A stretch of 64,000 nt of DNA from a virus (IMGVR_UViG_2634166398_000003:3548-67547), one strand, 5' to 3'; counted from the first letter of the stretch, positions 21,073 through 64,000 are shown. The notes: a model not told the origin generated them from the letters alone. Translations and numbers: made by a program.

Positions 21073-21144
21073 CAGGGGCGGCAGGGATCGAACCTGCCCA
21101 CGCGGTTTTGGAGACCGCATCGCCACCGAGGAACATGCGCCCCT
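21073..21144 (-). tRNA. tRNA-Trp(CCA), atypical D arm, CCA end not encoded
   Basis: Acceptor AGGGGCG/CGCCCCT+G; anticodon arm GCGGT-CTCCAAA-ACCGC; T arm GCAGG-TTCGATC-CCTGC. Confidence 0.85.
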
Positions 21145-22975: not shown

Positions 22976-23006
22976 AAAAAAAAGACGCCAACTATTCGTC
23001 AGCGCC
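22976..23006 (-). terminator. Terminator of the glycosyltransferase gene
   Basis: GGCGCTGAC-loop-GTTGGCGTC followed by T8. Confidence 0.7.
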
Positions 23007-24021
23007 TCAACGTAAGTATTTTCCCCGTCAGAAACAATCCAACGACCGCCTTCCGTTTCAGCATCGCCAGATACATCCGCCTCGCCCAGCTCTCCTCGTG
23101 CTGCAGCGCTATCGTAACCGCCTTCCCTACGTTCGGATGTTCGACTATGCGCTTAATCAGCGTCAACTTTTCGCGCACTGTTTTACGGCAGCCCGGCTTG
23201 AATTCGTTTTGTATGCAACCGTTAACCGCGATATAACATTTTCGCCGCGCCAGATCTACCGCAACTTTCTCGCTATATAAGCCCCACCGTTTCGCGTACC
23301 GTTCAAGCGTATCGCTATCGATGTACGAATCGAATAGCTCCGGATTATATTCGCGCATCAAACTGGCGTCATTGATCTGCCGGTAATGGTACAGCGGCTT
23401 ATCAACATAGTATGCCGTCCGACAATACGTAAACGCGTCCATGTTGAACAGCCAATCCTCGCCGAGATACTTGCCGTCAGGGAACGTTATGTTATGCGTA
23501 TCGAGCACGCTTCTGCGGATTACCTTGCCGACGCCGCCGTACGATCCGTTATATAAGAAATCCGTTAATATAGTCGCTTTAATCTCGGCCCGTCCGATCG
23601 GCTCATTCGCTTTTGCGCTATAACTTTTCGTATAGCTTTTCGTTTTGTCTTCGTAATCCCAACGCATGTCCGTAAACACAATATCTGCGTTGTTTTCACG
23701 GGCGGCTTCGTACATAATCGCGTAAGCTTCAGGCTCGATCCAATCGTCCGAGTCGATAAATGCTACGTATTCGCCACGCGCCTGCCTTAACGCAGTATTA
23801 CGCGCCGTTCCCGGACCTTGATTCGCCTGATAAATCGGTTTGACTCGTTCATCTATCGTGGAATAGTACCGCAGAATATTGCGCGTCGCATCAGTCGAGC
23901 CGTCATCTACGACCAAAACCTCGATATTTTTAAGCGTCTGTCCGAGTACGCTGTCAATGCAATCGCAAAGATACTTTTCGCCATTGTATACCGGTATAAT
24001 AACGCTCATTTTCGGATTCAT
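22999..24021 (-). CDS. GT2 family glycosyltransferase (EpsH/EpsJ-like)
   Basis: SVIIPVYN, VDDGSTD, ARN and FIDSDD (DxD), GED motifs. Confidence 0.92.
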   Translation of the reverse strand: MNPKMSVIIPVYNGEKYLCDCIDSVLGQTLKNIEVLVVDDGSTDATRNILRYYSTIDERVKPIYQANQGPGTARNTALRQARGEYVAFIDSDDWIEPEAYAIMYEAARENNADIVFTDMRWDYEDKTKSYTKSYSAKANEPIGRAEIKATILTDFLYNGSYGGVGKVIRRSVLDTHNITFPDGKYLGEDWLFNMDAFTYCRTAYYVDKPLYHYRQINDASLMREYNPELFDSYIDSDTLERYAKRWGLYSEKVAVDLARRKCYIAVNGCIQNEFKPGCRKTVREKLTLIKRIVEHPNVGKAVTIALQHEESWARRMYLAMLKRKAVVGLFLTGKILTLRR

Positions 24022-24072
24022 TTATAACCGCCCTTTCAGTTCGGGAATTCCCGTACTTTATTCGATAGGATA

Positions 24073-24100
24073 ATTATACCAACGCGCGCTCGAATTTCAA
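24073..24100 (-). promoter_or_regulatory. SigA promoter of the glycosyltransferase
   Basis: TTGAAA-16-TATAAT with extended -10 TG. Confidence 0.65.
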
Positions 24101-24119
24101 CACAAAAAAAGACGCCGAT

Positions 24120-24344
24120 TTACTCAGCGTCCTCTTCCGTGACTTCTTTTACCTCAAATAATTCTTCGTATTTAACTCCGGTTGCTTTCATGATAGATGC
24201 TACGTGCCAGTCGTAATGCCTTTCGGAATTATCGAATCGAGAGATTGCCGACTGAGTAACGCCGGATCTACGCGATAATTCGGATTGGGACCACCCTAAT
24301 TGCGAAAGTAGCGCTCCAAGACGAGGCTTTACCGTAATTTTCAT
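24120..24344 (-). CDS. Xre/Cro-family HTH repressor (74 aa)
   Basis: WSQSELSRRSGVTQSAISRF HTH; ATG 24344 after GAGGTG. Confidence 0.85.
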   Translation of the reverse strand: MKITVKPRLGALLSQLGWSQSELSRRSGVTQSAISRFDNSERHYDWHVASIMKATGVKYEELFEVKEVTEEDAE

Positions 24345-24362
24345 TTCGACCACCTCGTTATA

Positions 24363-24426
24363 ATTATACGCTAGAGGATATTTTTTCGCAAATACCCTTG
24401 ACGACACCTATGCGCTGGCGTATAGT
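24363..24426. promoter_or_regulatory. Divergent SigA promoters, each containing a 16 bp operator
   Basis: Minus: TTGCGA-17-TATAAT with operator 24365-24380; plus: TTGACG-17-TATAGT with operator TATGCGCTGGCGTATA at 24409-24424. Confidence 0.8.
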
Positions 24427-24475
24427 TTAGAATAACGAAGGGCCCTCGTTAATAAAATCCGAGAGGGGTAACGAA

Positions 24476-25273
24476 ATGATTAATGATTCACGAAAACTGA
24501 ATAAGGCGATTAAAGAACGAAACGGAGGCGCAGCCCCACAGACCAAAGCAAAGCTGCACCGTCCGAACCGAACGAAGCACTTCCAGTATATCACAGCGTT
24601 TATTCTATGCGCAATGTTATTCGCATCCACTTCAACCACCGCGCAAGCCACCGACGTTTACCGCAACTTTGTCGAACTCCAAGCCAACGAACCCGAGACG
24701 AACTACAACATTTTCGCAATCGACCACGCCACGCCCGTCCTGATACTAGCGCCACACGGCGGCAGTATTGAAGGCGGAACTAGCGAACTTGCTCGCGAAC
24801 TCAGTACCGACTATTCTACGTATCTATTCGAATCTCTTAAGACGCCGAACGGCTTCGACCTCCACATCACGAGTACCCATTTCGACGAACCAACTGCGCT
24901 TGCCTTAGTTGCGCGACACCATCGCGCTATATCTCTCCACGGCTATAGCGACAGCGCCGAGCATATTATCGTAGGTGGCACCGATCCGGTCCGCGGACAG
25001 ACGTTAGTAGATCGCTTGAACGTTGCCGGCTTTAGTGCCGAACTTGTAGGCGCTGGACATCGATTCGCAGGCGCAAGTAGCGCGAACATAGCGAATAAGT
25101 GCATAACCGGCGAAAGCTTACAGATCGAGCTTAGTACCGGTTTACGCAAAAGCATGTTCGATAAGTTCTCACTTAACGGACGCGCTGGAACCGAAACCGA
25201 GACGTTCTATAAGTTTGCTGGGTTGCTGTCGGATTTCATTAACGAAAACTATAACGCTGGAGGTAACGAATAA
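24476..25273 (+). CDS. Poly-gamma-glutamate hydrolase (PghP/DUF867 family) with signal peptide
   Basis: APHGGSIEGGT, LHITSTHFDEP, SLHG and QIELS motifs; hydrophobic stretch ending AQA. Confidence 0.9.
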   Translation: MINDSRKLNKAIKERNGGAAPQTKAKLHRPNRTKHFQYITAFILCAMLFASTSTTAQATDVYRNFVELQANEPETNYNIFAIDHATPVLILAPHGGSIEGGTSELARELSTDYSTYLFESLKTPNGFDLHITSTHFDEPTALALVARHHRAISLHGYSDSAEHIIVGGTDPVRGQTLVDRLNVAGFSAELVGAGHRFAGASSANIANKCITGESLQIELSTGLRKSMFDKFSLNGRAGTETETFYKFAGLLSDFINENYNAGGNE

Positions 25274-27039
25274 TGATGCGATATACGTTGGAAGTCGAAA
25301 AGTACGGTATCTGTAGCGATGGGACTGATGCGGACGTGACTACGGCGGGGTTTAACCAGGCGCTTAAAGACGCATCAGAGGCGGGCATTTGCGAGATTGA
25401 TATACCACGTGGCGATTACCTGATCGACGGGGTTAATAAAGACTCCGCTAATAAACCAGAAGAACGCGCAGGTATTATTGTTCCGTCCAATATGTCGTTA
25501 AATCTACACCCGGAAGCCGTATTCCGCGTGGAGCCGAACAGTTCTTTTGGATATACGTGTTTCTATATCGGAGAAGTCGAAAACGTGACGATAAAAGGCG
25601 GTAAGATACGTGGCGAACGTTACCAGCACGACTTTACCGGGCACGGTGATCGCGTAAAGAAAGAAACACACGAATGGGGATACGGCATAAACGTACATGG
25701 CGCCAAGAATGTCGTCATCGAAGGCGTGGATATTGCGGATTGTACAGGCGATTGTATTATGGTGAACGCGCAAGGCATGTTAAACGTACCGTGGACGACT
25801 TACCGGCCTGCCCGCAATATTACGATTGAGCGCTGTAAATTAGACGGAGCGCGTCGAAACAATATATCGGTCACCGGCGGAGAAGATGTGAAGATCGATA
25901 AAAACGTAATAACCAATGCAGGTATAAACGATGGCTGCAAGCCTATGTTCGGCATTGATATCGAAGGTTACGGAGAAGGTAATATCGACTACGAAGAGCC
26001 TCGCAATGTGAAGATAACGAATAATACTTTCGTAGGCAATGTGCTACAGTCCGTTTGCAACTTCAGCGGATACGAGGTCGTTATCTCCGGCAACTATTCG
26101 GATAACTCGATCTCTTACGGATTCGGAACCGACACTGCCATTTCGAATAATACGTTAGTACGTACGGACAAGAAATATACTGCAATTACGAGTCTCGGCG
26201 TGTCGGCCGGCTTTACCGGAAATAACACGACAATCACAGGAAATACGATAAAAGGCTTCAGCAGTGGTATTGACATTCGCGGAGCAGACGTTTCAGTATC
26301 CGGCAATACAATTTCGGAGCTTAGCGCGGACGGTACCGCATTAGCTACCTTCGAAGCCAAGAACGTTAAGTTTTCGGATAACATCGTAAACCACTGTCCG
26401 GGTAAATTATGTAGCGCGCGTAACTCAAAAGACATAACGTTCGAAGGTAACGATCTCCACGATTCGGATATTACTGCGATAGAGATTGCCGATTCCATTA
26501 ACGTTAAAGCGAAGTCGAACGACATTAAACGCAGTAAGCAAGGCGTCGTGGTTACGAGGTCTTCGGCGAAACTGATAGATAACGACATTGATCTTGCCGA
26601 CTACCCTGGCGCAACAGGATACGCTATATCTTTCGATAAGGGAAGCGACGTGAATATCGAATACAGCCGTATACCAAAACCGGCAAACATGGCTATTTAC
26701 GGAGAAAGCGCTGAGGGTCGAACCGTTCGCATTAAAAATAACGACATTACTGACGCGAAATGCTTGGTACCGATTTACGTCGTCGGTGGTAAAAACCCTG
26801 AAATATCCGGAAATGACATAACGTTTAATCGGAAGGCTTCGGGTGGTTACGGAATTCAAACGAAAAACACCGACGGTGCCTTAGTAAAGGAAAATGTTGT
26901 GTATTCGGCCAACTCATTCGCGTTGTACAATCCGATTAAGACTTCCGAGTCTGTGAATTCGCGAGTCATCGGAAATAAGGTATCCGGCACCCTATCGCTC
27001 AACGAAACCGACAAGGAATATCAAAATATTCCGATTTAA
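25273..27039 (+). CDS. Right-handed beta-helix protein (pectin-lyase-like; SPbeta YorA-like)
   Basis: Many I.GN.I coil repeats, HEWGYGI, ARRNNISV and FGIDIE motifs; coupled to the hydrolase gene. Confidence 0.8.
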   Translation: MMRYTLEVEKYGICSDGTDADVTTAGFNQALKDASEAGICEIDIPRGDYLIDGVNKDSANKPEERAGIIVPSNMSLNLHPEAVFRVEPNSSFGYTCFYIGEVENVTIKGGKIRGERYQHDFTGHGDRVKKETHEWGYGINVHGAKNVVIEGVDIADCTGDCIMVNAQGMLNVPWTTYRPARNITIERCKLDGARRNNISVTGGEDVKIDKNVITNAGINDGCKPMFGIDIEGYGEGNIDYEEPRNVKITNNTFVGNVLQSVCNFSGYEVVISGNYSDNSISYGFGTDTAISNNTLVRTDKKYTAITSLGVSAGFTGNNTTITGNTIKGFSSGIDIRGADVSVSGNTISELSADGTALATFEAKNVKFSDNIVNHCPGKLCSARNSKDITFEGNDLHDSDITAIEIADSINVKAKSNDIKRSKQGVVVTRSSAKLIDNDIDLADYPGATGYAISFDKGSDVNIEYSRIPKPANMAIYGESAEGRTVRIKNNDITDAKCLVPIYVVGGKNPEISGNDITFNRKASGGYGIQTKNTDGALVKENVVYSANSFALYNPIKTSESVNSRVIGNKVSGTLSLNETDKEYQNIPI

Positions 27040-29735: not shown

Positions 29736-30223
29736 TAGTGATAAACTTTTTCGCCGGTTGCGATATTTACGGTGAACTGGCCGTTAGACTTTCCGTTAAC
29801 AAACGCCGAATAACGTTTCCTTCGCTCTTCATTCCGTGCCTTGGCGCGCTTATCTAGTAATTTATTTTCGTAGGAAGAGCGTGGCCTGCGGATCGGCCGG
29901 CCTTTATAGGAGCCGGTTTGGTCGTATTCCTCCGCCAATTTATCCGAAGCTTCACGTTTGTATCGCTCTTCGAACTGGGTTTCGCTCATGATCGGGTACT
30001 CTTCACGCGTCACCTTATCCGGATGCGCGTCGGAAAGCTCTTCGTAGAGTACGAGATTAGCCATTCGTTCAAGTGCTGATAGCTCCGGGTGCTCACCGGT
30101 AGAGTCGTAGTAAGCGTCTGACAGGGCCGTTATTTCCTCAATACGTTCCTTCCGCGTCATATCGCCAGCCTTAGTGCGTGTGTACATTTCCGTAATTGTT
30201 TCGTGCAAAATCGTTTTATCCAT
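29735..30223 (-). CDS. Conserved phage hypothetical protein (possible late-regulator partner)
   Basis: ATG 30223; HPDKVTREEYPIMS motif; coupled to the region-4 HTH gene. Confidence 0.65.
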   Translation of the reverse strand: MDKTILHETITEMYTRTKAGDMTRKERIEEITALSDAYYDSTGEHPELSALERMANLVLYEELSDAHPDKVTREEYPIMSETQFEERYKREASDKLAEEYDQTGSYKGRPIRRPRSSYENKLLDKRAKARNEERRKRYSAFVNGKSNGQFTVNIATGEKVYH

Positions 30224-30605
30224 CAATCCGTCCCCCTGTCGTGTATCCTTCGCCATGACTGGCCCAATAGTAATAAATGTCCGCAAGCTTTTCAGCAGAC
30301 AAAGTTAGGTTAAAATCGACACCTTGCTGCGTTATGCCCATCCGTTCTCCCGCCTCGGCCTGCGTTAATTCTCCGAAGTAAACGAGCTCGATCGCCTGTC
30401 GTTGCCGATCCGTTAAGCCGGCGAGCTCGATCGCCTTGTGTATGTCGATTAGTACTTCCACGGCCGCATAGTCGCCGCAGCGCTTCCGGCTGACGAACTT
30501 CTGATAATCGGCGAGTAGCAACTTGACGCCCTCTGCGTCGTCGAGCGCATATGCGGCGTTAAACTCGCGGTCCTTGCGGTGCAAATCGATTTTTACCGTT
30601 CCCAT
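30216..30605 (-). CDS. Sigma-70 region-4 HTH protein (putative late transcription regulator)
   Basis: LTDRQRQAIELVYFGELTQAEAGERMGITQQGV; ATG 30605 after GGAGG. Confidence 0.8.
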   Translation of the reverse strand: MGTVKIDLHRKDREFNAAYALDDAEGVKLLLADYQKFVSRKRCGDYAAVEVLIDIHKAIELAGLTDRQRQAIELVYFGELTQAEAGERMGITQQGVDFNLTLSAEKLADIYYYWASHGEGYTTGGRIDG

Positions 30606-31363
30606 CAAACCACCTCCGCATCTATACCGCAAAGTAAGTGAAGAAACTTGGTCTCGGCGCTCACCGTGCCGAACTCCGAGGGATTAAGCACATGATGCGG
30701 AATCTCTTCCGACTCAATAAGGTCATCGTAAGGAATTAGATCGTCGTCCCAAATCACATTTAGTTCGCTCGCAGTTAAGTCCGTATAAGGAAGAACGTTA
30801 AGCGACGAAAAGTGCATAAAATCGTCCCGATCATTTTGAATAAAGAAAGCCCCTTTGCTTTTTCTCGTCAAAACGTCGCAATGTACGACCACTGCATTCA
30901 TGCCGCGGAACAATAAGTTAAATAATAAAAACGGTATTGCGCGGTCGCTCATCTCCTCGCAGTGGTAGAAATACCACGATGGCTTATAGTCGAACGGTGA
31001 GTGGTTGAGTCGGTCCGCATGCCATTTAGATATAGTCAACCCGCCAGTACCAGCGCACCCATCGTAAGTTGTTCGTGAATAAGTGTCGTCGTTTGCTATG
31101 CCCGCTAATAAATCCCCTACGCTTCCGGGCGTGAAATCCTGTTTTTTATCCTTCCGATCAGCGTGCTCCTCTTGGAAATACACATGAAATACGTCCTCTT
31201 CAGTTTTGCAAAGTTCCGGATCATTCACGAACTGTCTAAATACGTCCTCGCGGCGTTCTCGATCGAACAATACCTCCATGATCCTCGCAGGAGCTTTATA
31301 GGAGTCGTCGATACATAAAATACGATTAATTTTCTCGGTAACCGTTTCTCGCAATTCCGCCAC
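30605..31363 (-). CDS. N6-adenine methyltransferase-like protein (SAM-binding half only)
   Basis: QDFTP and YDGCAGTGGL motifs of HsdM-like enzymes; no NPP(Y/F) motif. Confidence 0.7.
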   Translation of the reverse strand: MAELRETVTEKINRILCIDDSYKAPARIMEVLFDRERREDVFRQFVNDPELCKTEEDVFHVYFQEEHADRKDKKQDFTPGSVGDLLAGIANDDTYSRTTYDGCAGTGGLTISKWHADRLNHSPFDYKPSWYFYHCEEMSDRAIPFLLFNLLFRGMNAVVVHCDVLTRKSKGAFFIQNDRDDFMHFSSLNVLPYTDLTASELNVIWDDDLIPYDDLIESEEIPHHVLNPSEFGTVSAETKFLHLLCGIDAEVV

Positions 31364-37329: not shown

Positions 37330-37411
37330 CTCACTTATATAATGGGTAAGTAATCGCCCGTTTTGCGACATCCTACGTGAAATAATATGCGCCTAGTAGA
37401 AAAACCGCGCA
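37330..37411 (-). promoter_or_regulatory. Tandem phage-specific promoter motifs, class A (37382-37411) and class B (37330-37371)
   Basis: TGCGCGGT-N11-GCGCATATTAT then ATGTCGCAAAA-N12-TACCCATTATATAAGTGAG; the same pair occurs at 62808-62903. Confidence 0.7.
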
Positions 37412-50906: not shown

Positions 50907-51042
50907 AGTACGTTAGCCTCCGTTATTTTAAGGATAATCGCACTAGGCCGAGGACATGTTCGCATAATTGTTCGCTTGAATTCGTTGACAATATGCAATA
51001 CAATGAGGACGTAGCGAAAGTCCTTCGGGCCTAGCTGCGTAG

Positions 51043-51651
51043 TTATTGCGCGATCAAGTAGTCTCGGTAATCGCCGAACTGTTTGGTATCGAAATTGCGT
51101 GAGAGCTTTTCGAGTTTGCGTATGACTGTTGAGTGATGTAGACCCAACTTTTTTCCGATTGCCGTCGGAGTTGGCTTTTCACTCGAAAGATATGCTTCGG
51201 CGATTTGTATTGTCGTTGCGTCAGATGTAGTACCTAATAGGAAGTCGATCAGTTGCCGCTGGTCAACTTCTTTTTTTGTAGTCAAAAGTTCTTCCGGGGT
51301 TATCGTGCAAGGGACCTCGAATGTTGCCGCATCCTTATGGTCTCCTTTTGGTATAATTTCTCTTTTGTTTCTGTTTACCCGCCCCCTTAAAAAATAACGC
51401 CTCTGTAACGGAACACTTGCATTAAATAACCTTTCAAAATCATGCTCTCCGTTGTACGAATCAATGCAAGAAAGTAAGGTATCTTCATAAATCGCTCTTG
51501 CCTCATAATAATCTGCACCAATTGATTTACCAATTGTTTTGAACTTTCGGTCATTTCTTGTTATGAAGTAATCGTAAACCACCCTAAAAGCAGATTCACT
51601 TCTACTTTCTCGGTACTTTAATACTTCGCTATTCAATTGTTCTTTTCTCAA
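51043..51651 (-). CDS. Sigma-70-family-like phage sigma factor
   Basis: Region-2-like segment (AFRVVYDY...YEDTLLSCIDSYN...FERLF) and C-terminal HTH (TPTAIGKKLGLHHSTVIRKL). Confidence 0.7.
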   Translation of the reverse strand: MRKEQLNSEVLKYRESRSESAFRVVYDYFITRNDRKFKTIGKSIGADYYEARAIYEDTLLSCIDSYNGEHDFERLFNASVPLQRRYFLRGRVNRNKREIIPKGDHKDAATFEVPCTITPEELLTTKKEVDQRQLIDFLLGTTSDATTIQIAEAYLSSEKPTPTAIGKKLGLHHSTVIRKLEKLSRNFDTKQFGDYRDYLIAQ

Positions 51652-51680
51652 TTTTTCGTCCTCCCTTTTGCTTACATACG

Positions 51681-51710
51681 ACTATATGCACCTGCTTACA
51701 CAACCGCGCA
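51681..51710 (-). promoter_or_regulatory. Class A phage-specific promoter motif upstream of the sigma gene
   Basis: TGCGCGGT-N11-GTGCATATAGT. Confidence 0.65.
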
Positions 51711-51849
51711 TTTTTTGTTTGTTTTTTCTCTATGTGTAAATAATACCAAGTATTTTCTGCAATTATCTGAAAACGACACCCTATTTATATAAAAATAAGT
51801 AGCGCGGATACGACCTGAGTATCGTGTTTCGTAGAAGCTTTAGAAAATT

Positions 51850-51880
51850 AAAAAACCCCACAACATTACGTTGTGGGGTT
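51850..51880 (-). terminator. Terminator after aimP
   Basis: AACCCCACAAC-GTAAT-GTTGTGGGGTT followed by T run. Confidence 0.85.
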
Positions 51881-51889
51881 AATAAAGAA

Positions 51890-52021
51890 TTAAGCGCCAA
51901 CCCGAATGTCGGCTACCTTATATTCTCCTTCGGTGCTAGCTTGATTCTGTGTATCATATTTAAATGCAAATCCTGCTGCCGCCATCACTACGATTAAAGT
52001 GGCTAATAATATCTTTTTCAA
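51890..52021 (-). CDS. aimP: Arbitrium pro-peptide AimP (43 aa, not in track)
   Basis: AAGGAGAGG SD then TTG: MKKILLATLIVVMAAAGFAFKYDTQNQASTEGEYKVADIRVGA; signal peptide plus C-terminal DIRVGA; overlaps the aimR 3' end. Confidence 0.88.
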   Translation of the reverse strand: MKKILLATLIVVMAAAGFAFKYDTQNQASTEGEYKVADIRVGA

Positions 52022-53186
52022 TTAAAACCTCTCCTTTAATTAATTTTTTGAATTTTAGGAATGGTCTAAGCGCTCGTGAGTCAGCTCCTGCTTTCTCAAG
52101 CTCTTTCGCTACTAACCTTGCAAAAAAGAAGTTTTCTTGACAGAAAAAAGACTCTAGGCAATTATACATTACATCTATTGACTTTTCCGCTGTGTTTTCG
52201 AAAAATATTATAAAATTGTCTTTATCGCCCCTCTCTAATATCGTATGTAACTTCGCTAAAGAAATTTTCCCGTTTCTCGCTTTCTGATATGCTCTCAGCC
52301 TGAAGTTAGAATCTTCATCAAGCTCAACGCCGTGAAAGACTTTCGCGAAATCTAAATTGAACTTTGCCTCTTGGATATACTGCAAATCGCCCACTTCACG
52401 CATTAACTCGTAACTTTTCCAGAGGTTATACAAACAGACATTTTTATCATCCGGTAAGTACGACATCCCTATAACATAATATGCATCAGATTTCTTTTTC
52501 GCGGATATATTTGCATTAATAATGGATTCAGCAAAATCCCGAGCAGATTTTACATCATTAAGTTGCAAACTAATAGGCGCCAATAATTCACAGACCCTGA
52601 ACGTTAAGCATTCTTTATAAAAGGTTTCTCGCGGCCCTAGGTTTGTTATATCCTTCTGGATTTCCGAGACTTCATTTATTATTTTTTGTATGTCACCTTC
52701 AAAATAGTTGTTATACTGTCGAATGATATTCATTAAGATCAAAAGTGGTTTACTTGTTATATTGTGGAGTCTTCCTATTGCATCCTTCAGTTCAAAACCG
52801 CTCAACGTTCCTACCATATAGTTATAAACAATGCGGTACACTTCCACCGTCTGTTTAAGAACTCCGTCAGTATTTTGGTGAAGTAGTAATAATCTTTTTA
52901 AAAGGGGAGCGTTTGTAGTAATTGCGGAGTATTCAAATGCATTTTTTATTGTTTCTGTCCGTGTGATATGCAAACACCATTCTGACAAAATTTCATGACT
53001 TCCCTTTCCTGTTTCTCTTGAAATCAGTTGAGCGAATTTAATAAGTTTCTTGAAACTTATTTTGCCTTTCTTGAAAAAATCCCTATATGCACTTTCACTC
53101 ATTCCAACAAACTCCATAACATCCGTCTTTTTTATGTCATCGTGGTCTTCAATAAAATCATGCACCATTTTTGTGATGTATTCCAA
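51960..53186 (-). CDS. aimR: Arbitrium receptor AimR (HTH plus TPR, RRNPP family)
   Basis: 408 aa; N-terminal HTH, NAFEYS motif, TPR helices (AYYVIGMSYL); followed by a secreted peptide gene. Confidence 0.88.
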   Translation of the reverse strand: MEYITKMVHDFIEDHDDIKKTDVMEFVGMSESAYRDFFKKGKISFKKLIKFAQLISRETGKGSHEILSEWCLHITRTETIKNAFEYSAITTNAPLLKRLLLLHQNTDGVLKQTVEVYRIVYNYMVGTLSGFELKDAIGRLHNITSKPLLILMNIIRQYNNYFEGDIQKIINEVSEIQKDITNLGPRETFYKECLTFRVCELLAPISLQLNDVKSARDFAESIINANISAKKKSDAYYVIGMSYLPDDKNVCLYNLWKSYELMREVGDLQYIQEAKFNLDFAKVFHGVELDEDSNFRLRAYQKARNGKISLAKLHTILERGDKDNFIIFFENTAEKSIDVMYNCLESFFCQENFFFARLVAKELEKAGADSRALRPFLKFKKLIKGEVLIEKDIISHFNRSDGGSRICI

Positions 53187-53244
53187 GTGAGCCTACCTCC
53201 TTGATTATCTATTTAAATTCGATCAGCAACTTTTAACTAACTCA

Positions 53245-53274
53245 ATTATAATTATTGCATTATCGATATGTCAA
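53245..53274 (-). promoter_or_regulatory. SigA promoter of aimR
   Basis: TTGACA-18-TATAAT. Confidence 0.65.
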
Positions 53275-53335
53275 TAATAATTTTCGGTAGTTTTTGTTAA
53301 AGCGATAATATAAAATATACTGGACACCTTTACGA

Positions 53336-53581
53336 ATGGAGGTGTTTATCACGTTTAAGGTCGGCAAATGTCGGATACCCGAACTGTGCAAGAAACGCGG
53401 AATTAGTCTCAGTCAACTCGCAGCAATGGTCGGAGTATCAAAAACGCAAATGTCCGATTACGTCAGCCTTCGGAATCTTCCGAGCATCGAACGAACCTAC
53501 AATATCGCAATGATGCTCGGCTGCGCGCCCGAAGATCTGTACGATTGGATTGAGGTATCCGACAGCAACACGGAGGGTTAA
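53336..53581 (+). CDS. Xre/Cro-family HTH regulator divergent from aimR
   Basis: ISLSQLAAMVGVSKTQMSDY...PSIE HTH. Confidence 0.85.
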   Translation: MEVFITFKVGKCRIPELCKKRGISLSQLAAMVGVSKTQMSDYVSLRNLPSIERTYNIAMMLGCAPEDLYDWIEVSDSNTEG

Positions 53582-53597
53582 TACAACCTCCGCCGAC

Positions 53598-54593
53598 CTA
53601 AAGTACGGGAATTCCCGAACCTAAACGTAAAGTAGGTCTCACGACCTCCGCACGATCATACACGTCTCTCAACGCTTCTGTACCGCGCTTTATAAGTAGT
53701 TCATCAGCGTCTTTCACCTCCGTAATATAACCGTGCGCAAGCCGCACCTTTCCGATCAAATAACGCTCAATCTCCCGCCGTAACTTTTCGCCAGCTTTGT
53801 CGTTATCTGTAACTACCGTTAAATATTCGATAGGAGACTGCGTGATTATGTCCGCCTTCTGCAAATTAAATGTGCTGCCGCCTGTTCCGATCGCCGGTAT
53901 GCCCGCTGATCGCCACGCCATAGCATCGATTTCCGCCTCGCATATCACCGCGCTTTTAAGCCGCTGCGCATATACGAGATCCATTCCGTACACTAAGTAC
54001 CGGATAGGCATGCCGCCTTTTACGTACCAAAACGCCTTCCCCTTCGTTGCCCTATACTTAACGTTAGCCAGTCGCCCGTTAGGAAGCCGCCATGGGATCG
54101 CGACTGCATTTCCGGCAAGCGATACGCCGGCCTCTTCTTGTACCGCGGCCGCAATGCCCCGGCCCGTTAGATAAGCGTTAGGCCCCGGTATTGTGTCCGC
54201 GAGGATCGATTCCGGCAAAGGCTCCGGCTTCGTGACGGCCTTTAATTTCGGTAGCCGCAGCGTCATACGCCCGCCTTCAGCCGCCGGTGCATACGTTTCC
54301 AATAAATACTCGATTGCGTCGTCTTCGGTTTCGCCGCGCAGGAAAGCGAGCAGTTTAACGAACCCGCCTCGCGCAAATTCTTCATCATAAGCGCCTGAGT
54401 CGCCCCAATAGCCGGCTTTTGCCGACGCTGTGTCTTCGAGGTAAACGTAAAAGCTCGGCGTCCGATCGTATCTGAATGGACTGGCGGCCAGCAGGCGTTC
54501 ATCGCCCCACGTCGGCCGGGTCCAGTTGAATTGTTCGAGCTCATACCGAATGTCGACGTCTACAAAACGTCCATTCAAAGTTAATATCGGCAA
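53598..54593 (-). CDS. DNA primase (Toprim)
   Basis: SPFRYDRTPSF (Cys-less Zn-ribbon remnant), NVKYR, ICEAEIDAM, TDNDKAG and KDADE motifs. Confidence 0.88.
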   Translation of the reverse strand: MPILTLNGRFVDVDIRYELEQFNWTRPTWGDERLLAASPFRYDRTPSFYVYLEDTASAKAGYWGDSGAYDEEFARGGFVKLLAFLRGETEDDAIEYLLETYAPAAEGGRMTLRLPKLKAVTKPEPLPESILADTIPGPNAYLTGRGIAAAVQEEAGVSLAGNAVAIPWRLPNGRLANVKYRATKGKAFWYVKGGMPIRYLVYGMDLVYAQRLKSAVICEAEIDAMAWRSAGIPAIGTGGSTFNLQKADIITQSPIEYLTVVTDNDKAGEKLRREIERYLIGKVRLAHGYITEVKDADELLIKRGTEALRDVYDRAEVVRPTLRLGSGIPVL

Positions 54594-62807: not shown

Positions 62808-62903
62808 CTCACTTCTATAACGGGTAGGCTACCGTTAATTTTGCGACATCAGAAGTAAAACTTTTTACAACCGATAATATGCACGCCAAATTAATACCGC
62901 GCA
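62808..62903 (-). promoter_or_regulatory. Tandem class A (62874-62903) and class B (62808-62849) promoter motifs heading the replication operon
   Basis: TGCGCGGT-N11-GTGCATATTAT then ATGTCGCAAAA-N12-TACCCGTTATAGAAGTGAG. Confidence 0.7.
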
Positions 62904-62912
62904 AAAACGGAC

Positions 62913-62945
62913 AAAAAAAATAACCCGGCCGTATGGCCGAGTCAT
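62913..62945 (-). terminator. Terminator after integrase
   Basis: ATGACTCGGCC-ATAC-GGCCGGGTTAT followed by T run. Confidence 0.8.
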
Positions 62946-64000
62946 CGTCTGCTAGTTTTCCGTTTTTTATTTTTATTTTCTTGTATCTGAAGTAACGGTG
63001 AATGCTTACTATGCTCTTTGGCCAGCGCTTTTTTGGATAGATGTGTATAACGCTGTACCATACGGAGATCGTTATGTCCGAGTATCGCCTGTAAATGCCG
63101 AATGTCTCCGCCATCTTCTAAAAACATCGTGGCGCCCGTATGACGTATTAAATGAGGATGCACGCGCTTTTTGATGCCTGCCCTGTCTGCGTAGTTATTC
63201 AGTCGCTGCCTAAAATTATTAGTCGTCATCTTCTCGCCATAGTTTGCCAGAAAAACATATTCACTATCGAATTCCTCATTTTCTCTTATAAGTTCGCGCA
63301 GCAATCGAAGTGTTTTATCCTCTAACGGTACGAATCTTCCCCTTCGATTCTTTACGTCTTTTCCTTCGAGTATCAACGTTTTGGAGCCAAAATCAATACT
63401 CGACTCTTTAATGGACAACACCTCACCGACACGCATCATAGAGTCGATTAGGCAGGTTAACGCAACGTAATCTCTAAATTCAACGAAAGATCGCTGATCC
63501 ATCGCATTAAGAATCGCCCGCATTTCGTCAGGTGAAAGGATGTTTATCGGGTTCTCCGGGTTCGTAATTAACGTAACCTCTTCGAATGGGTTATCGTCCG
63601 CATACGCCTCTTTAATCGCGAAACGAAAGAAAGTCCGAATGGTCTTAATATAATCGTTAACTGACCGCGGAGATAACCCCTGCGTCTTATGCTCGTCTAA
63701 TTTGAAACTGTGACCGTCGAACTTTATTTTATCGTTAATCAGCCACGATACAAAGCCGCGCGCAAAGTCAACGTCAATATGACGTATGTCTGCGGACACT
63801 CTGATCTCCTCCGCGTACTTCGTTAGATACCGACAAGCACGCATGTACTTATCAATCGTTTCCTGAACGACATTTTCAGCGCGCTTGGCATCGCACAGCC
63901 TATCGAATATGTATTCGAGATCATACGTACCTTTTCGCGTTGTCTTTACCGAGGCCCTTCCGGCCTTCACACGCTTACCTTTTCGATTTTCTGAATGCAT
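62942..64000 (-). CDS. int: Prophage tyrosine integrase (start may extend beyond the window)
   Basis: SMMRVGE (R), VKN (K), HPHLIRHT, LGH and VQRY motifs plus an N-terminal SAM-like domain. Confidence 0.92.
   Translation of the reverse strand: MHSENRKGKRVKAGRASVKTTRKGTYDLEYIFDRLCDAKRAENVVQETIDKYMRACRYLTKYAEEIRVSADIRHIDVDFARGFVSWLINDKIKFDGHSFKLDEHKTQGLSPRSVNDYIKTIRTFFRFAIKEAYADDNPFEEVTLITNPENPINILSPDEMRAILNAMDQRSFVEFRDYVALTCLIDSMMRVGEVLSIKESSIDFGSKTLILEGKDVKNRRGRFVPLEDKTLRLLRELIRENEEFDSEYVFLANYGEKMTTNNFRQRLNNYADRAGIKKRVHPHLIRHTGATMFLEDGGDIRHLQAILGHNDLRMVQRYTHLSKKALAKEHSKHSPLLQIQENKNKKRKTSRR

What the first reader, a model, noticed from the sequence alone, without database searches (positions are those of the whole stretch)
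51043..53581. Arbitrium locus (peptide DIRVGA) placed directly on a phage sigma factor, with no visible aimX ORF
Seen: an HTH-TPR gene overlapped by a 43 aa secreted peptide gene ending VA-DIRVGA, then a strong terminator, ~190 bp with no convincing ORF, and a sigma-like gene. The gap holds a TG-extended -10 (TGGTATTAT) with a poor -35 and a class A motif. Established: AimR/AimP peptide signalling controls lysis versus lysogeny in Bacillus phages, normally through aimX. Inference: here apo-AimR may switch on the sigma gene by antitermination or activation, and the sigma factor may lock in lysis through its own class A promoter. That would be a peptide-to-sigma-cascade switch; no large CI-type repressor is visible in the window.
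Basis: partly seen in the sequence, partly recalled or inferred. Interest (0 to 1): 0.8.

Follow-up and report, generated by a model that had tools for sequence, protein, structure and literature searches.

The report
Phage peptide signalling wired to sigma factor
A temperate Bacillus phage carries a peptide-communication (arbitrium) module placed directly in front of a phage sigma-factor gene instead of the usual small aimX gene, and the same wiring recurs in dozens of related prophages, which suggests the peptide signal controls the master switch for the phage's lytic genes.

Summary
All on the minus strand lie aimR (51960-53186; curated AimR model 219 bits against a cut-off of 70), an overlapping 43-aa signal-peptide gene ending DIRVGA, a strong terminator, about 196 bp with no credible ORF, and a 202-aa gene (51043-51651). 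That protein fails curated sigma thresholds. Its predicted fold, a language-model neighbour search and a family profile (SigW, E 8.9e-6) place it among divergent ECF-like sigma-70 proteins.

AimR-AimP-sigma synteny holds in 56 of 63 related viral loci and 10 of 10 bacterial genome loci.

This promoter type occurs three times in the window, all on the minus strand: before the sigma gene, at the head of the replication operon, and before the nucleotide-metabolism genes. In five relatives, 17 of 17 such sites lie on the sigma gene's strand.

Best reading (0.55): apo-AimR activates P1, the sigma factor amplifies itself through P2 and turns on lytic genes, and DIRVGA blocks this.

Not shown: the AimR operator, the sign of regulation, and sigma activity. 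I found no published description, but the main 2019 arbitrium survey was not readable.

The parts
53336..53581 (+). Small XRE/Cro-type HTH gene (81 aa), divergent from aimR and convergent with the primase gene. It is conserved backbone and marks the right edge of the variable cassette.
   Evidence: Pfam HTH_26 5.2e-10 and HTH_3 1.4e-7. It is 80% identical at DNA level to phi18-2 and 268TH007. DNA similarity to relatives resumes at about 53305-53338.
53245..53274 (-). Consensus sigma-A-type promoter for aimR-aimP (TTGACA-18-TATAAT), in the 149-bp divergent intergenic region 53187-53335.
   Evidence: 12 of 12 hexamer matches. Sequence.
51960..53186 (-). aimR, the arbitrium peptide receptor (408 aa, HTH + TPR).
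   Evidence: NF038310 218.9 bits against cut-off 70. PF22871 93.1 bits. phrog_1728 1.9e-74. The closest phage AimRs are 37% identical (W-beta/Gamma group).
51890..52021 (-). aimP, a 43-aa pre-pro-peptide with a signal peptide. The predicted mature hexapeptide is DIRVGA.
   Evidence: ORF and translation. The same type of ORF lies at the same place in 53 loci, ending in xxxxGG/GA in most.
51848..51880 (-). Intrinsic terminator after aimP.
   Evidence: 12-bp stem plus T run. -18.3 kcal/mol, z = -6.1. A terminator lies at this place in 42 of 44 unique aimP-to-sigma gaps.
51740..51748 (-). P1: extended -10 element TGGTATTAT with no usable -35. It is the candidate AimR-dependent promoter.
   Evidence: Sequence. 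TGNTANN[AC]T lies at -130..-65 in 35 of 44 unique gaps, against a shuffle mean of 3.4 and maximum of 8. It is conserved between the window and L011.
51681..51710 (-). P2, the 'class A' promoter TGCGCGGT-N16-TATAGT directly upstream of the sigma gene's ribosome-binding site. It is the candidate sigma-dependent, self-activating promoter.
   Evidence: A TG[CT]GCG box lies at -90..-25 in 39 of 44 unique gaps, against a shuffle mean of 0.32. The strict pattern is found in 28 of 66 loci, against a background of 0.0017 per 130 nt.
51043..51651 (-). Divergent ECF-like sigma-70-family gene (202 aa; TTG start; ribosome-binding site AAGGGAGG at 51667-51660) in the position that aimX holds in SPbeta/phi3T.
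   Evidence: AlphaFold2 model, pLDDT 81.5. All 50 top PDB fold hits are sigma factors. Viral fold hits are phage sigma factors. Atlas neighbours carry Sigma70_r2/r4. The family profile hits SigW at 8.9e-6. 11 of 49 family members hit Sigma70_r2.
62874..62903 (-). Second class A promoter (TGCGCGGT-N16-TATTAT). It follows a terminator after the integrase gene and stands at the head of the replication operon.
   Evidence: Equivalent sites lie about 1.1 kb from the end in relatives G001, G002 and G004.
37382..37411 (-). Third class A promoter (TGCGCGGT-N16-TATTAT). It lies after the ribonucleotide-reductase small-subunit gene, ahead of a small membrane ORF and ORFs I read as dUTPase and ThyX.
   Evidence: Gene names are read from the translations, not from a family search. 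Equivalent sites lie about 26-27 kb from the end in G002 and G004.
62942..64000 (-). Tyrosine integrase (context: it shows the phage is temperate).
   Evidence: PF00589 130.1 bits. The record is classed as a provirus, 100% complete by CheckV.

Best explanation
This is an arbitrium lysis-lysogeny module whose output gene is a phage-encoded, divergent ECF-like sigma factor rather than aimX.

**Proposed mechanism**
1. A consensus host-type promoter expresses aimR-aimP, and transcription stops at the aimP terminator.
2. Peptide-free AimR activates P1, an extended -10 promoter that lacks a -35, and so starts transcription of the sigma gene.
3. The sigma factor then reads its own P2 promoter (TGCGCG-N18-TATnnT), giving positive feedback.
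4. It also reads identical promoters at the head of the replication operon and of the nucleotide-metabolism operon, which commits the cell to lytic development.
5. Imported DIRVGA releases AimR from DNA. The sigma factor is not made, the sigma-dependent operons stay silent, and the phage integrates.

**Shown:** gene identities, the anatomy of the region, and conservation of the synteny and of the promoter elements.

**Inferred:** that AimR acts on P1, that it activates rather than represses, that the 202-aa protein directs RNA polymerase to class A promoters, and that this decides lysis.
For: **Gene identities**
- AimR passes curated models.
- AimP has a signal peptide and a DIRVGA end.
- The 202-aa protein has a two-domain sigma fold: all 50 top PDB hits are sigma factors, best E 4.7e-4. 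Phage sigma factors dominate the viral library hits.
- A profile of 49 diverged family members hits SigW at 8.9e-6 over nearly its full length, RpoE at 5e-5 and SigE at 1.5e-4.
- 11 of 49 members hit Pfam Sigma70_r2. Atlas neighbours carry Sigma70_r2/r4 at score 0.97.

**Synteny**
- An AimR homologue lies upstream on the same strand in 54 of 63 viral loci by tblastn, plus 2 more by Pfam.
- The same holds in 10 of 10 loci from species-representative genomes of at least seven Bacillaceae genera.

**Cassette behaviour**
- DNA similarity to relatives stops at about 51041-51277 and resumes at about 53305-53338.
- GC falls to 0.31-0.39 across aimR, aimP, the gap and the N-terminal half of the sigma gene, against about 0.48 in the flanks.

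**Gap layout in 44 unique gaps**
- Terminator in 42, TGYGCG box in 39, extended -10 upstream of the box in 35. All are far above shuffles.

**Class A promoters**
- There are 3 in the window, all on the minus strand and all intergenic.
- In five relatives, 17 of 17 matches lie on the sigma gene's strand, against 3 control matches. Some lie at comparable distances from the record end: about 1.1 kb in G001, G002 and G004, and about 26-27 kb in G002 and G004.
- The motif is also present upstream of the sigma gene in L025, which has no AimR.
- phi18-2-type phages have a very different sigma C-domain (30-43% identical). They carry a different box (RTGTCCRAAA), 7 of 8 copies on the sigma strand, one before their own sigma gene and one at an early-operon head.

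**Other**
- The genes downstream of class A sites are replication and nucleotide-metabolism genes, which fits a lytic role.
Against: - No AimR operator of the published type (6-bp inverted repeats about 25 bp apart) could be defined in the window. There are 0 perfect 6-bp repeats with a 23-28 bp spacer.
- The one 7-bp repeat, TTACACA-N30-TGTGTAA (51739-51696), carries a mismatch in two 98%-identical relatives and is absent from L011, whose AimR is 69% identical.
- If AimR did bind that repeat, it would sit over P1 and P2 and would repress them.
- The window protein itself fails every curated sigma threshold: no Pfam hit, and TIGR02937 at 13.9 bits against 42.9.
- A profile of close relatives finds no solved sigma factor.
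- The family profile reaches only 451 cluster representatives in 1.84 billion, so it does not merge with the large sigma families.
- hhalign against the window's other sigma-region-4 protein is not significant (E 0.15).
- The -10 parts of class A sites resemble host sigma-A -10 boxes. The protein could therefore be an activator that binds the TGCGCG box, not a sigma factor.
- Six loci carry the sigma gene without arbitrium, so its expression does not inherently need AimR.
- No expression evidence exists. RNA-library contigs only show presence, and the one raw-read run held no reads on the stretch.
- The loci are related to one another, so the counts are not independent events.
Confidence: 0.55

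Rival explanations
1. The regulation has the opposite sign. AimR binds between P1 and P2 and represses the sigma gene while peptide is absent, and the peptide derepresses it. The sigma factor would then serve establishment of lysogeny or some other late-density programme.
For: The only sizeable inverted repeat with an AimR-like long AT-rich spacer in the window (TTACACA-N30-TGTGTAA, 51739-51696) abuts the P1 -10 and lies inside the P2 spacer. Repeats at the same relative place occur in other clades: ATTTCTT-N27-AAGAAAT in L012, a 10-bp arm repeat in L059, and TGGACA-N32-TGTCCA in phi18-2.
Against: - The repeat is mutated in L009 and L010 and absent from L011, although their AimR HTH regions are near-identical.
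- A 7-bp repeat in 240 AT-rich bases is within chance range. Perfect 6-bp repeats with a 23-28 bp spacer average 0.45 per shuffle.
- The genes behind class A promoters are replication and nucleotide-metabolism genes.
- Published AimRs activate their target (PMC6458997, passages read).
Confidence: 0.12
2. The 202-aa protein has a sigma-like fold but does not replace sigma-A. It would be a DNA-binding activator that binds the TGCGCG box and helps sigma-A holoenzyme use the TATnAT -10. Arbitrium would still gate it.
For: - The -10 parts of class A sites (TATTAT, TATAGT, TATAAT) resemble sigma-A boxes.
- No curated sigma model is passed.
- The C-terminal HTH is the most conserved part, at 55-76% against 35-64% for the N-domain among the TGCGCG-type sigmas. 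It draws generic HTH hits.
Against: - Fold hits and the SigW profile hit span both domains.
- The N-domain of 11 of 49 members hits Sigma70_r2.
- The three bases upstream of the -10 are constant within a genome but differ between clades with different N-domains: GCA, GGG, TCG, CTT, CCT. This suggests the phage protein also reads the -10 region.
Confidence: 0.15
3. Adjacency without direct control. Arbitrium and the sigma gene merely share the phage's early regulatory hot spot. AimR's real target lies elsewhere, or the sigma gene is reached by read-through or antitermination of the aimP terminator.
For: - The operator is not identified.
- The sigma gene stands without arbitrium in 6 loci. In 4 of them, and in phage Mgbh1, it stands directly after the primase region.
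- In L040 and L052 the distance from aimR to the sigma gene is about 0.8 and 2.6 kb. L052 has an opposite-strand 419-aa ORF in between.
Against: - Adjacency holds in 56 of 63 and 10 of 10 loci, across AimRs that are only 22-46% identical.
- The cassette boundaries enclose aimR, aimP and the sigma N-domain together.
- A conserved promoter without a -35 sits between the terminator and the sigma gene.
- The leader has no second terminator or stable structure, and no Rfam family matches.
Confidence: 0.13

Closest known systems
Arbitrium of SPbeta/phi3T (AimR-AimP-AimX)
   Same: An HTH-TPR receptor is followed by an overlapping secreted pro-peptide gene with a C-terminal hexapeptide (DIRVGA here; SAIRGA and GMPRGA are named in the papers read). 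Then comes a non-coding stretch and an output gene on the same strand. The phage is temperate and has an integrase.
   Different: - The output is a 202-aa sigma-70-family protein, not a short aimX ORF or RNA.
- No operator of 6-bp repeats with a 25-bp spacer was recognised.
- The AimR is distant, with its best phage match at 37%.
- The output gene carries a second promoter, apparently for self-activation, that is shared with two operon heads.
Arbitrium of W-beta/Gamma-type Bacillus cereus-group phages (closest AimR sequences)
   Same: These are the nearest AimR relatives among sequenced phages, at 35-38% identity over 95-97% of the protein. AimP is annotated in some records.
   Different: In W-beta the locus lies between the integrase and an oppositely oriented regulator gene, with no sigma gene downstream. 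These phages are about 40 kb, against 67 kb here.
phi18-2, 268TH002 and 268TH007 (Bacillus subtilis phages, 64-68 kb)
   Same: They share the backbone at 77-85% DNA identity in the flanks. The gene order is the same: XRE, aimR, gap, then a sigma-like gene annotated 'RNA polymerase sigma factor' in 268TH007.
   Different: AimR and sigma are each only about 27% identical to the window's. aimP is not annotated there. The box before the sigma gene differs (RTGTCCRAAA). The genome announcement mentions neither AimR nor sigma (0 occurrences of each in the main text).
ECF (group 4) sigma factors such as Bacillus subtilis SigW
   Same: Two-domain sigma-2/sigma-4 architecture of about 200 aa. The family profile matches SigW at 8.9e-6 over profile positions 15-183. 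A candidate cognate promoter stands in front of its own gene. That ECF sigma genes are commonly self-activated is recalled, not tested here.
   Different: No anti-sigma gene is seen next to it. Control would come through a peptide receptor acting on transcription. The -10 is TATAAT-like. Curated sigma models are not passed.
ComRS-SigX of streptococci (recalled from memory, no call)
   Same: An RRNPP-type peptide receptor directly controls transcription of an alternative sigma factor gene, which then switches on a regulon.
   Different: There the peptide activates the receptor and the system is chromosomal and drives competence. Here the peptide is expected to inactivate AimR, and the system belongs to a phage.

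Membership tests
Arbitrium system | AimR: an HTH + TPR receptor that matches curated AimR models | tested here: met
   NF038310 scores 218.9 bits against cut-off 70. PF22871 scores 93.1 bits against 26.7.
Arbitrium system | AimP: a short ORF at the 3' end of aimR with a signal peptide and a C-terminal mature peptide of the xxxxG[GA] type | tested here: met
   A 43-aa ORF reads MKKILLATLIVVMAAAGFAF...DIRVGA. Equivalent ORFs occur in 53 loci, most ending in GG or GA. Secretion and processing cannot be tested here.
Arbitrium system | AimR operator: two 6-bp inverted repeats about 25 bp apart, downstream of aimP (PMC6458997) | tested here: inconclusive
   There are 0 perfect 6-bp repeats with a 23-28 bp spacer. 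One 7-bp repeat has a 30-bp spacer but is not conserved in L009, L010 or L011. Other clades have clearer candidates upstream of P1: AAGTAC-N26-GTACTT and AAGTAA-N26-TTACTT.
Arbitrium system | aimX: a short output ORF or RNA downstream of aimP | tested here: not met
   There is no credible ORF in 51652-51889 and no Rfam match. The next gene is the 202-aa sigma-like gene.
Arbitrium system | The peptide releases AimR from DNA and shifts the lysis-lysogeny decision | not testable with these tools
   This needs EMSA and infection or induction assays with synthetic DIRVGA.
Sigma-70 family (ECF-like, group 4) | The protein itself passes curated sigma models (regions 2 and 4) | tested here: not met
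   No Pfam sigma hit. TIGR02937 scores 13.9 bits against cut-off 42.9, E 0.031.
Sigma-70 family (ECF-like, group 4) | Family-level sequence homology to proven sigma factors | tested here: met
   The profile of 49 diverged members hits SigW at 8.9e-6, RpoE at 5e-5 and SigE at 1.5e-4. 11 of 49 members hit Sigma70_r2 and 2 hit Sigma70_ECF. The narrower profile A1 found none.
Sigma-70 family (ECF-like, group 4) | Two-domain sigma-2 / linker / sigma-4 fold | tested here: met
   AlphaFold2 pLDDT is 81.5, with a disordered linker at 101-117. All 50 top PDB matches are sigma factors. TM-scores are low (0.24-0.39), as expected for two mobile domains. The viral library is dominated by phage sigma factors.
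Sigma-70 family (ECF-like, group 4) | A cognate promoter class with -35 and -10 elements | tested here: inconclusive
   A conserved, strand-specific TGYGCG-N18-TATnnT class exists and changes with the sigma clade. Recognition by this protein is inferred.
Sigma-70 family (ECF-like, group 4) | Binds core RNA polymerase and directs initiation | not testable with these tools
In vitro transcription is needed.

The most novel reading that the evidence does not exclude
Arbitrium-sigma modules form a widespread, exchangeable cassette in Bacillaceae prophages. The cassette holds the receptor, the peptide, the regulatory region and the promoter-reading N-domain of a sigma factor.

In this reading the peptide signal directly gates a self-amplifying phage sigma factor that alone unlocks the replication and nucleotide-metabolism operons. 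The result would be a bistable commitment switch that works without a CI/LexA-type repressor. It would be the phage counterpart, with inverted sign, of peptide-to-sigma circuits such as ComRS-SigX.
Probability: 0.4. Interest if true: 0.85.

Novelty: new variant of a known kind. Interest (0 to 1): 0.72.

Why it matters
How arbitrium turns a peptide concentration into a developmental decision has been worked out only for SPbeta and phi3T, where the output is the small AimX. Two recent reviews I searched describe only AimX and never use the word "sigma".

Here the output gene is a transcription-initiation factor with a recognisable candidate regulon. The whole path from peptide to AimR to sigma to the replication and nucleotide-metabolism operons can therefore be tested directly with standard Bacillus genetics and in vitro transcription.

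The wiring is not a one-off. It holds in 56 of 63 related viral loci and in 10 of 10 genome loci from at least seven Bacillaceae genera. It may therefore be a major, undescribed architecture of phage communication.

The candidate self-activating promoter suggests how a graded peptide signal could become an all-or-none commitment.

Tried and rejected
- **AimR operator search.** I scanned for perfect and one-mismatch inverted repeats with 15-36 bp spacers, and for repeats shared between the window and L011. Nothing convincing emerged for the window. The AAATGC-N18-GCATAT hit is simply the P2 -35/-10 pair.
- **Antitermination or a riboswitch-like leader.** The leader fold has z = -0.45 and no Rfam family matches.
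- **CodY-box idea (consensus recalled from memory).** The window has two sites with 3 mismatches, and other clades have sites with 1-3 mismatches, but the cereus-group gaps have none. It remains only a lead.
- **Sequence link between the sigma gene and the window's second sigma-like gene.** hhalign E 0.15, not significant.
- **PDB sequence search with the narrow profile A1.** No sigma hits.
- **Expression evidence.** One raw-read RNA run held no reads on the stretch. Three RNA libraries held only short contigs, which cannot show transcription. They were useful only for the cassette boundaries.
- **Stokar-Avihail et al. 2019** (the main arbitrium survey) was not held under either its DOI or its PMC id. 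Supplementary peptide catalogues are closed, so prior mention of DIRVGA or of a sigma output cannot be excluded.
- **Literature searches:**
  - arbitrium + sigma factor + AimR gave 8 papers. The 'sigma factor' passages of 2 of them were read and are not relevant. The other 6 were judged from the listing only.
  - arbitrium + aimX + sigma gave 21 papers. In the two of these opened and searched for 'sigma' (PMC13220667, PMC8612738), only supplier names turned up.
  - AimR + sigma-70 gave 0 papers.
  - DIRVGA gave 0 occurrences.
  - Phage names gave 11 papers. The 268TH announcement mentions neither AimR nor sigma.


Full report
**1. Observation**

The window is bases 3548-67547 of a 67,547-bp IMG/VR provirus record, rated 100% complete by CheckV.

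On the minus strand lie the following:
- a 408-aa HTH-TPR gene at 51960-53186;
- a 43-aa ORF at 51890-52021 that overlaps its 3' end by 62 nt and reads MKK + hydrophobic stretch ... GEYKVADIRVGA;
- a terminator at 51880-51854, with an 11-12 bp stem and a T run, -18.3 kcal/mol, z = -6.1, and 0 of 200 shuffles folding as well;
- about 196 bp without a credible ORF;
- a 202-aa gene at 51043-51651, with a TTG start and the ribosome-binding site AAGGGAGG.

A divergent 81-aa XRE-type HTH gene lies at 53336-53581 on the plus strand. TGGTATTAT is at 51748-51740. The hexamers 17-18 bp upstream match TTGACA at 3 of 6 positions or fewer.

**2. Gene identities**

The large gene is an AimR:
- NCBIfam equivalog NF038310, 218.9 bits against a cut-off of 70;
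- Pfam AimR, 93.1 bits against 26.7;
- phrog_1728, E 1.9e-74.

Its nearest relatives among sequenced phages are the AimRs of W-beta/Gamma-type Bacillus cereus-group phages, at 35-38% identity. The 43-aa ORF has the form of an AimP pre-pro-peptide. "DIRVGA" does not occur in the main text of any paper in the searchable library. Supplementary peptide catalogues could not be read.

The 202-aa protein is harder to place.

Against a sigma assignment:
- It has no Pfam sigma hit, and TIGR02937 gives only 13.9 bits (E 0.031).
- A profile of 41 close family members finds no solved sigma factor.
- An exhaustive profile search finds only 451 cluster representatives at E <= 0.001, so this is a compact family of its own.

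For a sigma assignment:
- The AlphaFold2 model (pLDDT 81.5) has two helical domains joined by a disordered linker.
- All 50 best PDB fold matches are sigma factors, including a SigH model at 4.7e-4 and sigma-E, sigma-32, SigB and SigW.
- The viral structure library returns the Mgbh1 homologue and then mostly phage sigma factors.
- A language-model neighbour search returns Sigma70_r2/r4 clusters at score 0.97.
- A profile of 49 more diverged family members hits Bacillus subtilis SigW at 8.9e-6 over nearly its full length, RpoE at 5e-5 and SigE at 1.5e-4.
- 11 of those 49 members individually hit Pfam Sigma70_r2.

I therefore treat it as a divergent ECF-like sigma-70-family protein, at about 0.85.

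**3. Context**

The phage is temperate. A tyrosine integrase lies at 62942-64000. No Peptidase_S24 (CI/LexA-type) domain is encoded anywhere in the record.

Small XRE-type proteins do exist. The HTH_3 search gives three matches above the cut-off: window 53381-53539 (the 81-aa gene), window 24234-24302, and the left end of the record outside the window.

The backbone resembles the B. subtilis phages phi18-2, 268TH002 and 268TH007, at 77-85% DNA identity in the flanks. These phages have the same gene order: XRE, aimR, gap, then a sigma-like gene annotated "RNA polymerase sigma factor" in 268TH007. Their AimR and sigma are each only about 27% identical to the window's.

DNA similarity to relatives stops at about 51041-51277 and resumes at about 53305-53338. 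Contigs of a relative in an RNA library break off at 51039 and 53338. GC drops to 0.31-0.39 from about 51350 to 53300, against about 0.48 outside. So aimR, aimP, the regulatory gap and at least the N-terminal domain of the sigma gene form one hypervariable cassette in a conserved backbone. Between clades, the sigma N-domain is 35-64% identical and the C-domain 55-76%.

**4. Synteny**

A scan of viral contigs with the family alignment gave 63 loci.
- tblastn with three AimRs finds an AimR homologue upstream on the same strand in 54 of the 63.
- Pfam adds L026 and L033, giving 56 of 63.
- Of the other seven, L068 has no upstream DNA. Four (L025, L058, L063, L065) have the primase gene directly upstream. 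Two (L060, L061) have a small LytTR-domain protein there.
- In L040 and L052 the distance from aimR to the sigma gene is about 0.8 and 2.6 kb, and L052 has an inserted opposite-strand ORF.

AimP-like ORFs are present too. The genera are Bacillus, Metabacillus, Niallia, Mesobacillus, Cytobacillus, Peribacillus and Neobacillus.

AimP-like ORFs occur in the 53 loci examined, with 21 different last-six-residue endings. Examples are DIRVGA, DIRIGA, DPVPGG, EIKVGG, PEKVGG, ETRPGG and INAIGG. Some endings are probably miscalled ORFs. Many loci are close relatives, so these counts are not independent events.

**5. Anatomy of the gap**

Among 44 unique aimP-to-sigma gaps:
- 42 begin with a terminator;
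- 39 have a TG[CT]GCG box 25-90 nt before the sigma start, against a shuffle mean of 0.32 and maximum of 2;
- 35 have an extended -10 (TGNTANN[AC]T) upstream of the box, at -130..-65, against a shuffle mean of 3.4 and maximum of 8.

The order is therefore: terminator, P1 (extended -10 with no -35), an A-rich stretch of 30-50 nt, P2 (TGYGCG-N18-TATnnT), ribosome-binding site, sigma gene.

Between the window and L011 (AimR 69% identical, sigma 68%), the conserved blocks are P1 with its flank, the A-run with TGCGCG, the P2 -10 region and the ribosome-binding site.

**6. The class A promoter**

The strict pattern occurs three times in the window, all on the minus strand and all intergenic, against 0.43-0.96 expected:
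- 51710-51681, before the sigma gene;
- 62903-62874, just after a terminator that follows the integrase gene. This is the head of an operon whose products match replication-initiation families. The helicase and primase assignments at its far end are read from the translations and from the annotated relatives;
- 37411-37382, after an ORF that I read as the ribonucleotide-reductase small subunit, ahead of a small membrane ORF and ORFs that I read as dUTPase and ThyX. These names come from the translations, not from a family search.

In five diverged relatives the pattern occurs 2-5 times per genome. All 17 of 17 matches lie on the sigma gene's strand, against 3 matches of the reversed control pattern. 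G001, G002 and G004 have a site about 1.1 kb from the record end. G002 and G004 have one about 26-27 kb from the end. These distances match those of the window's sites.

The strict pattern lies upstream of the sigma gene in 28 of 66 loci, against a background of 0.0017 per 130 nt. One of these is L025, which lacks AimR. The motif therefore goes with the sigma gene, not with AimR.

The three bases just upstream of the -10 are constant within a genome but differ between clades (GCA, GGG, TCG, CTT, CCT). The pairs with the most similar N-domains share them.

phi18-2-type phages have a C-domain only 30-43% identical. They lack TGCGCG and carry RTGTCCRAAA instead: 8 copies in three genomes, 7 of them on the sigma strand, with 0 control matches. 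One copy stands before their own sigma gene and one at the head of an early operon.

This co-variation is the main argument that the sigma-like protein reads these sites, but it remains an inference.

**7. Mechanism**

The proposed sequence of events is:
1. A consensus sigma-A promoter (TTGACA-18-TATAAT, 53274-53245) drives aimR-aimP, and transcription ends at the terminator.
2. Peptide-free AimR activates P1.
3. The sigma factor then reinforces itself at P2 and opens the replication and nucleotide-metabolism operons.
4. DIRVGA inactivates AimR, so the sigma factor is not made and lysogeny follows.

Shown: identities, anatomy and conservation. Inferred: the site and sign of AimR action, sigma activity, and the biological outcome.

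The phages without arbitrium place the sigma gene straight after the primase region. This suggests that the cassette, together with its terminator, insulates the sigma gene from upstream transcription and puts it under peptide control.

**8. What speaks against this reading, or is missing**

- The published operator type is two 6-bp inverted repeats 25 bp apart (PMC6458997, passages read). It was not found in the window: 0 perfect 6-bp repeats with a 23-28 bp spacer.
- The repeat TTACACA-N30-TGTGTAA (51739-51696) is not conserved in L009, L010 or L011. If it were used, it would imply repression.
- Other clades do show candidates upstream of P1: AAGTAC-N26-GTACTT in the cereus-group loci and AAGTAA-N26-TTACTT in L021.
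- The leader is unstructured (z = -0.45) and matches no Rfam family, so antitermination has no support.
- RNA data gave nothing usable on expression.

**9. Novelty**

- No paper in the searchable library combines AimR with sigma-70.
- Eight papers hold arbitrium, 'sigma factor' and AimR. The 'sigma factor' passages of two were read and concern host or unrelated phage sigma factors. The other six were judged from the listing only.
- Twenty-one papers hold arbitrium, aimX and sigma. Of the two of these that I opened and searched for 'sigma', only supplier names turned up.
- Two recent arbitrium reviews have 0 occurrences of "sigma".
- The genome announcement for 268TH002 and 268TH007 mentions neither AimR nor sigma.
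Prior notice therefore cannot be excluded.

I rate this a new variant of a known kind: arbitrium with a sigma factor as its output.

Noticed in passing
window 30216-30632 (-): This is a second, small sigma-like gene of 138 aa. It hits phrog_3512 'sigma factor' at 1e-30 and Pfam Sigma70_r4 at 1.6e-10. Its position between the early genes and the putative structural genes is my reading of the ORF map. Together with the 202-aa protein it may form a two-step sigma cascade.
   Followed up: partly
window 24042-24053 and 53606-53617: The perfect palindrome CGGGAATTCCCG, inside an identical 20-nt stretch, occurs twice. One copy lies just downstream of a strong promoter-like site before the glycosyltransferase gene. 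The other lies between the XRE gene and the primase stop. It may be an operator or a bidirectional terminator core.
   Followed up: no
window 62850-62839 and 37372-37361 (-): GATGTCGCAAAA lies about 10-25 nt downstream of the -10 of two of the three class A promoters, but not of the sigma gene's own promoter. Its meaning is unknown.
   Followed up: no
G003:55142-55171, G004:48657-48686, G005:49599-49628 (relatives): Three relatives have an extra class-A-type site about 0.8 kb upstream of the sigma-gene site. In L023 it falls inside aimR, about 440 bp before aimP. It could let the sigma factor boost aimP expression during lytic growth. The window has no such site.
   Followed up: partly
window 51775-51761 and about 51849-51835 (-); loci L011, L027, L018: Sequences resembling the host CodY-box consensus (recalled from memory) lie near P1. 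The window has 3 mismatches at two sites, L011 has 1 mismatch and the L027 clade has 2. The cereus-group gaps have none. This is a weak lead for a nutritional input.
   Followed up: partly
L060:4799-5179 and L061:4786-5190: In two loci a small LytTR-domain DNA-binding protein stands upstream of the sigma gene, where arbitrium stands elsewhere.
   Followed up: no
window 22999-27039: This is an accessory block. It holds a family-2 glycosyltransferase (22999-24021, -), a poly-gamma-glutamate hydrolase (24476-25273, +) and a beta-helix protein (25273-27039, +). A small HTH_3 ORF lies beside it at 24120-24407.
   Followed up: no
window 21073-21142 (-): ARAGORN calls a tRNA-Trp, yet the Rfam gathering-threshold scan of the whole window returned no family at all.
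   Followed up: no
window 50907-51042 (-): The 136-bp gap after the sigma gene holds a long-range inverted repeat, CTAGGCC...GGCCTAG, that flanks a promoter-like TTGTCA-16-AATTAT. The fold gives -36.4 kcal/mol and z = -2.2. It belongs to the conserved backbone.
   Followed up: partly
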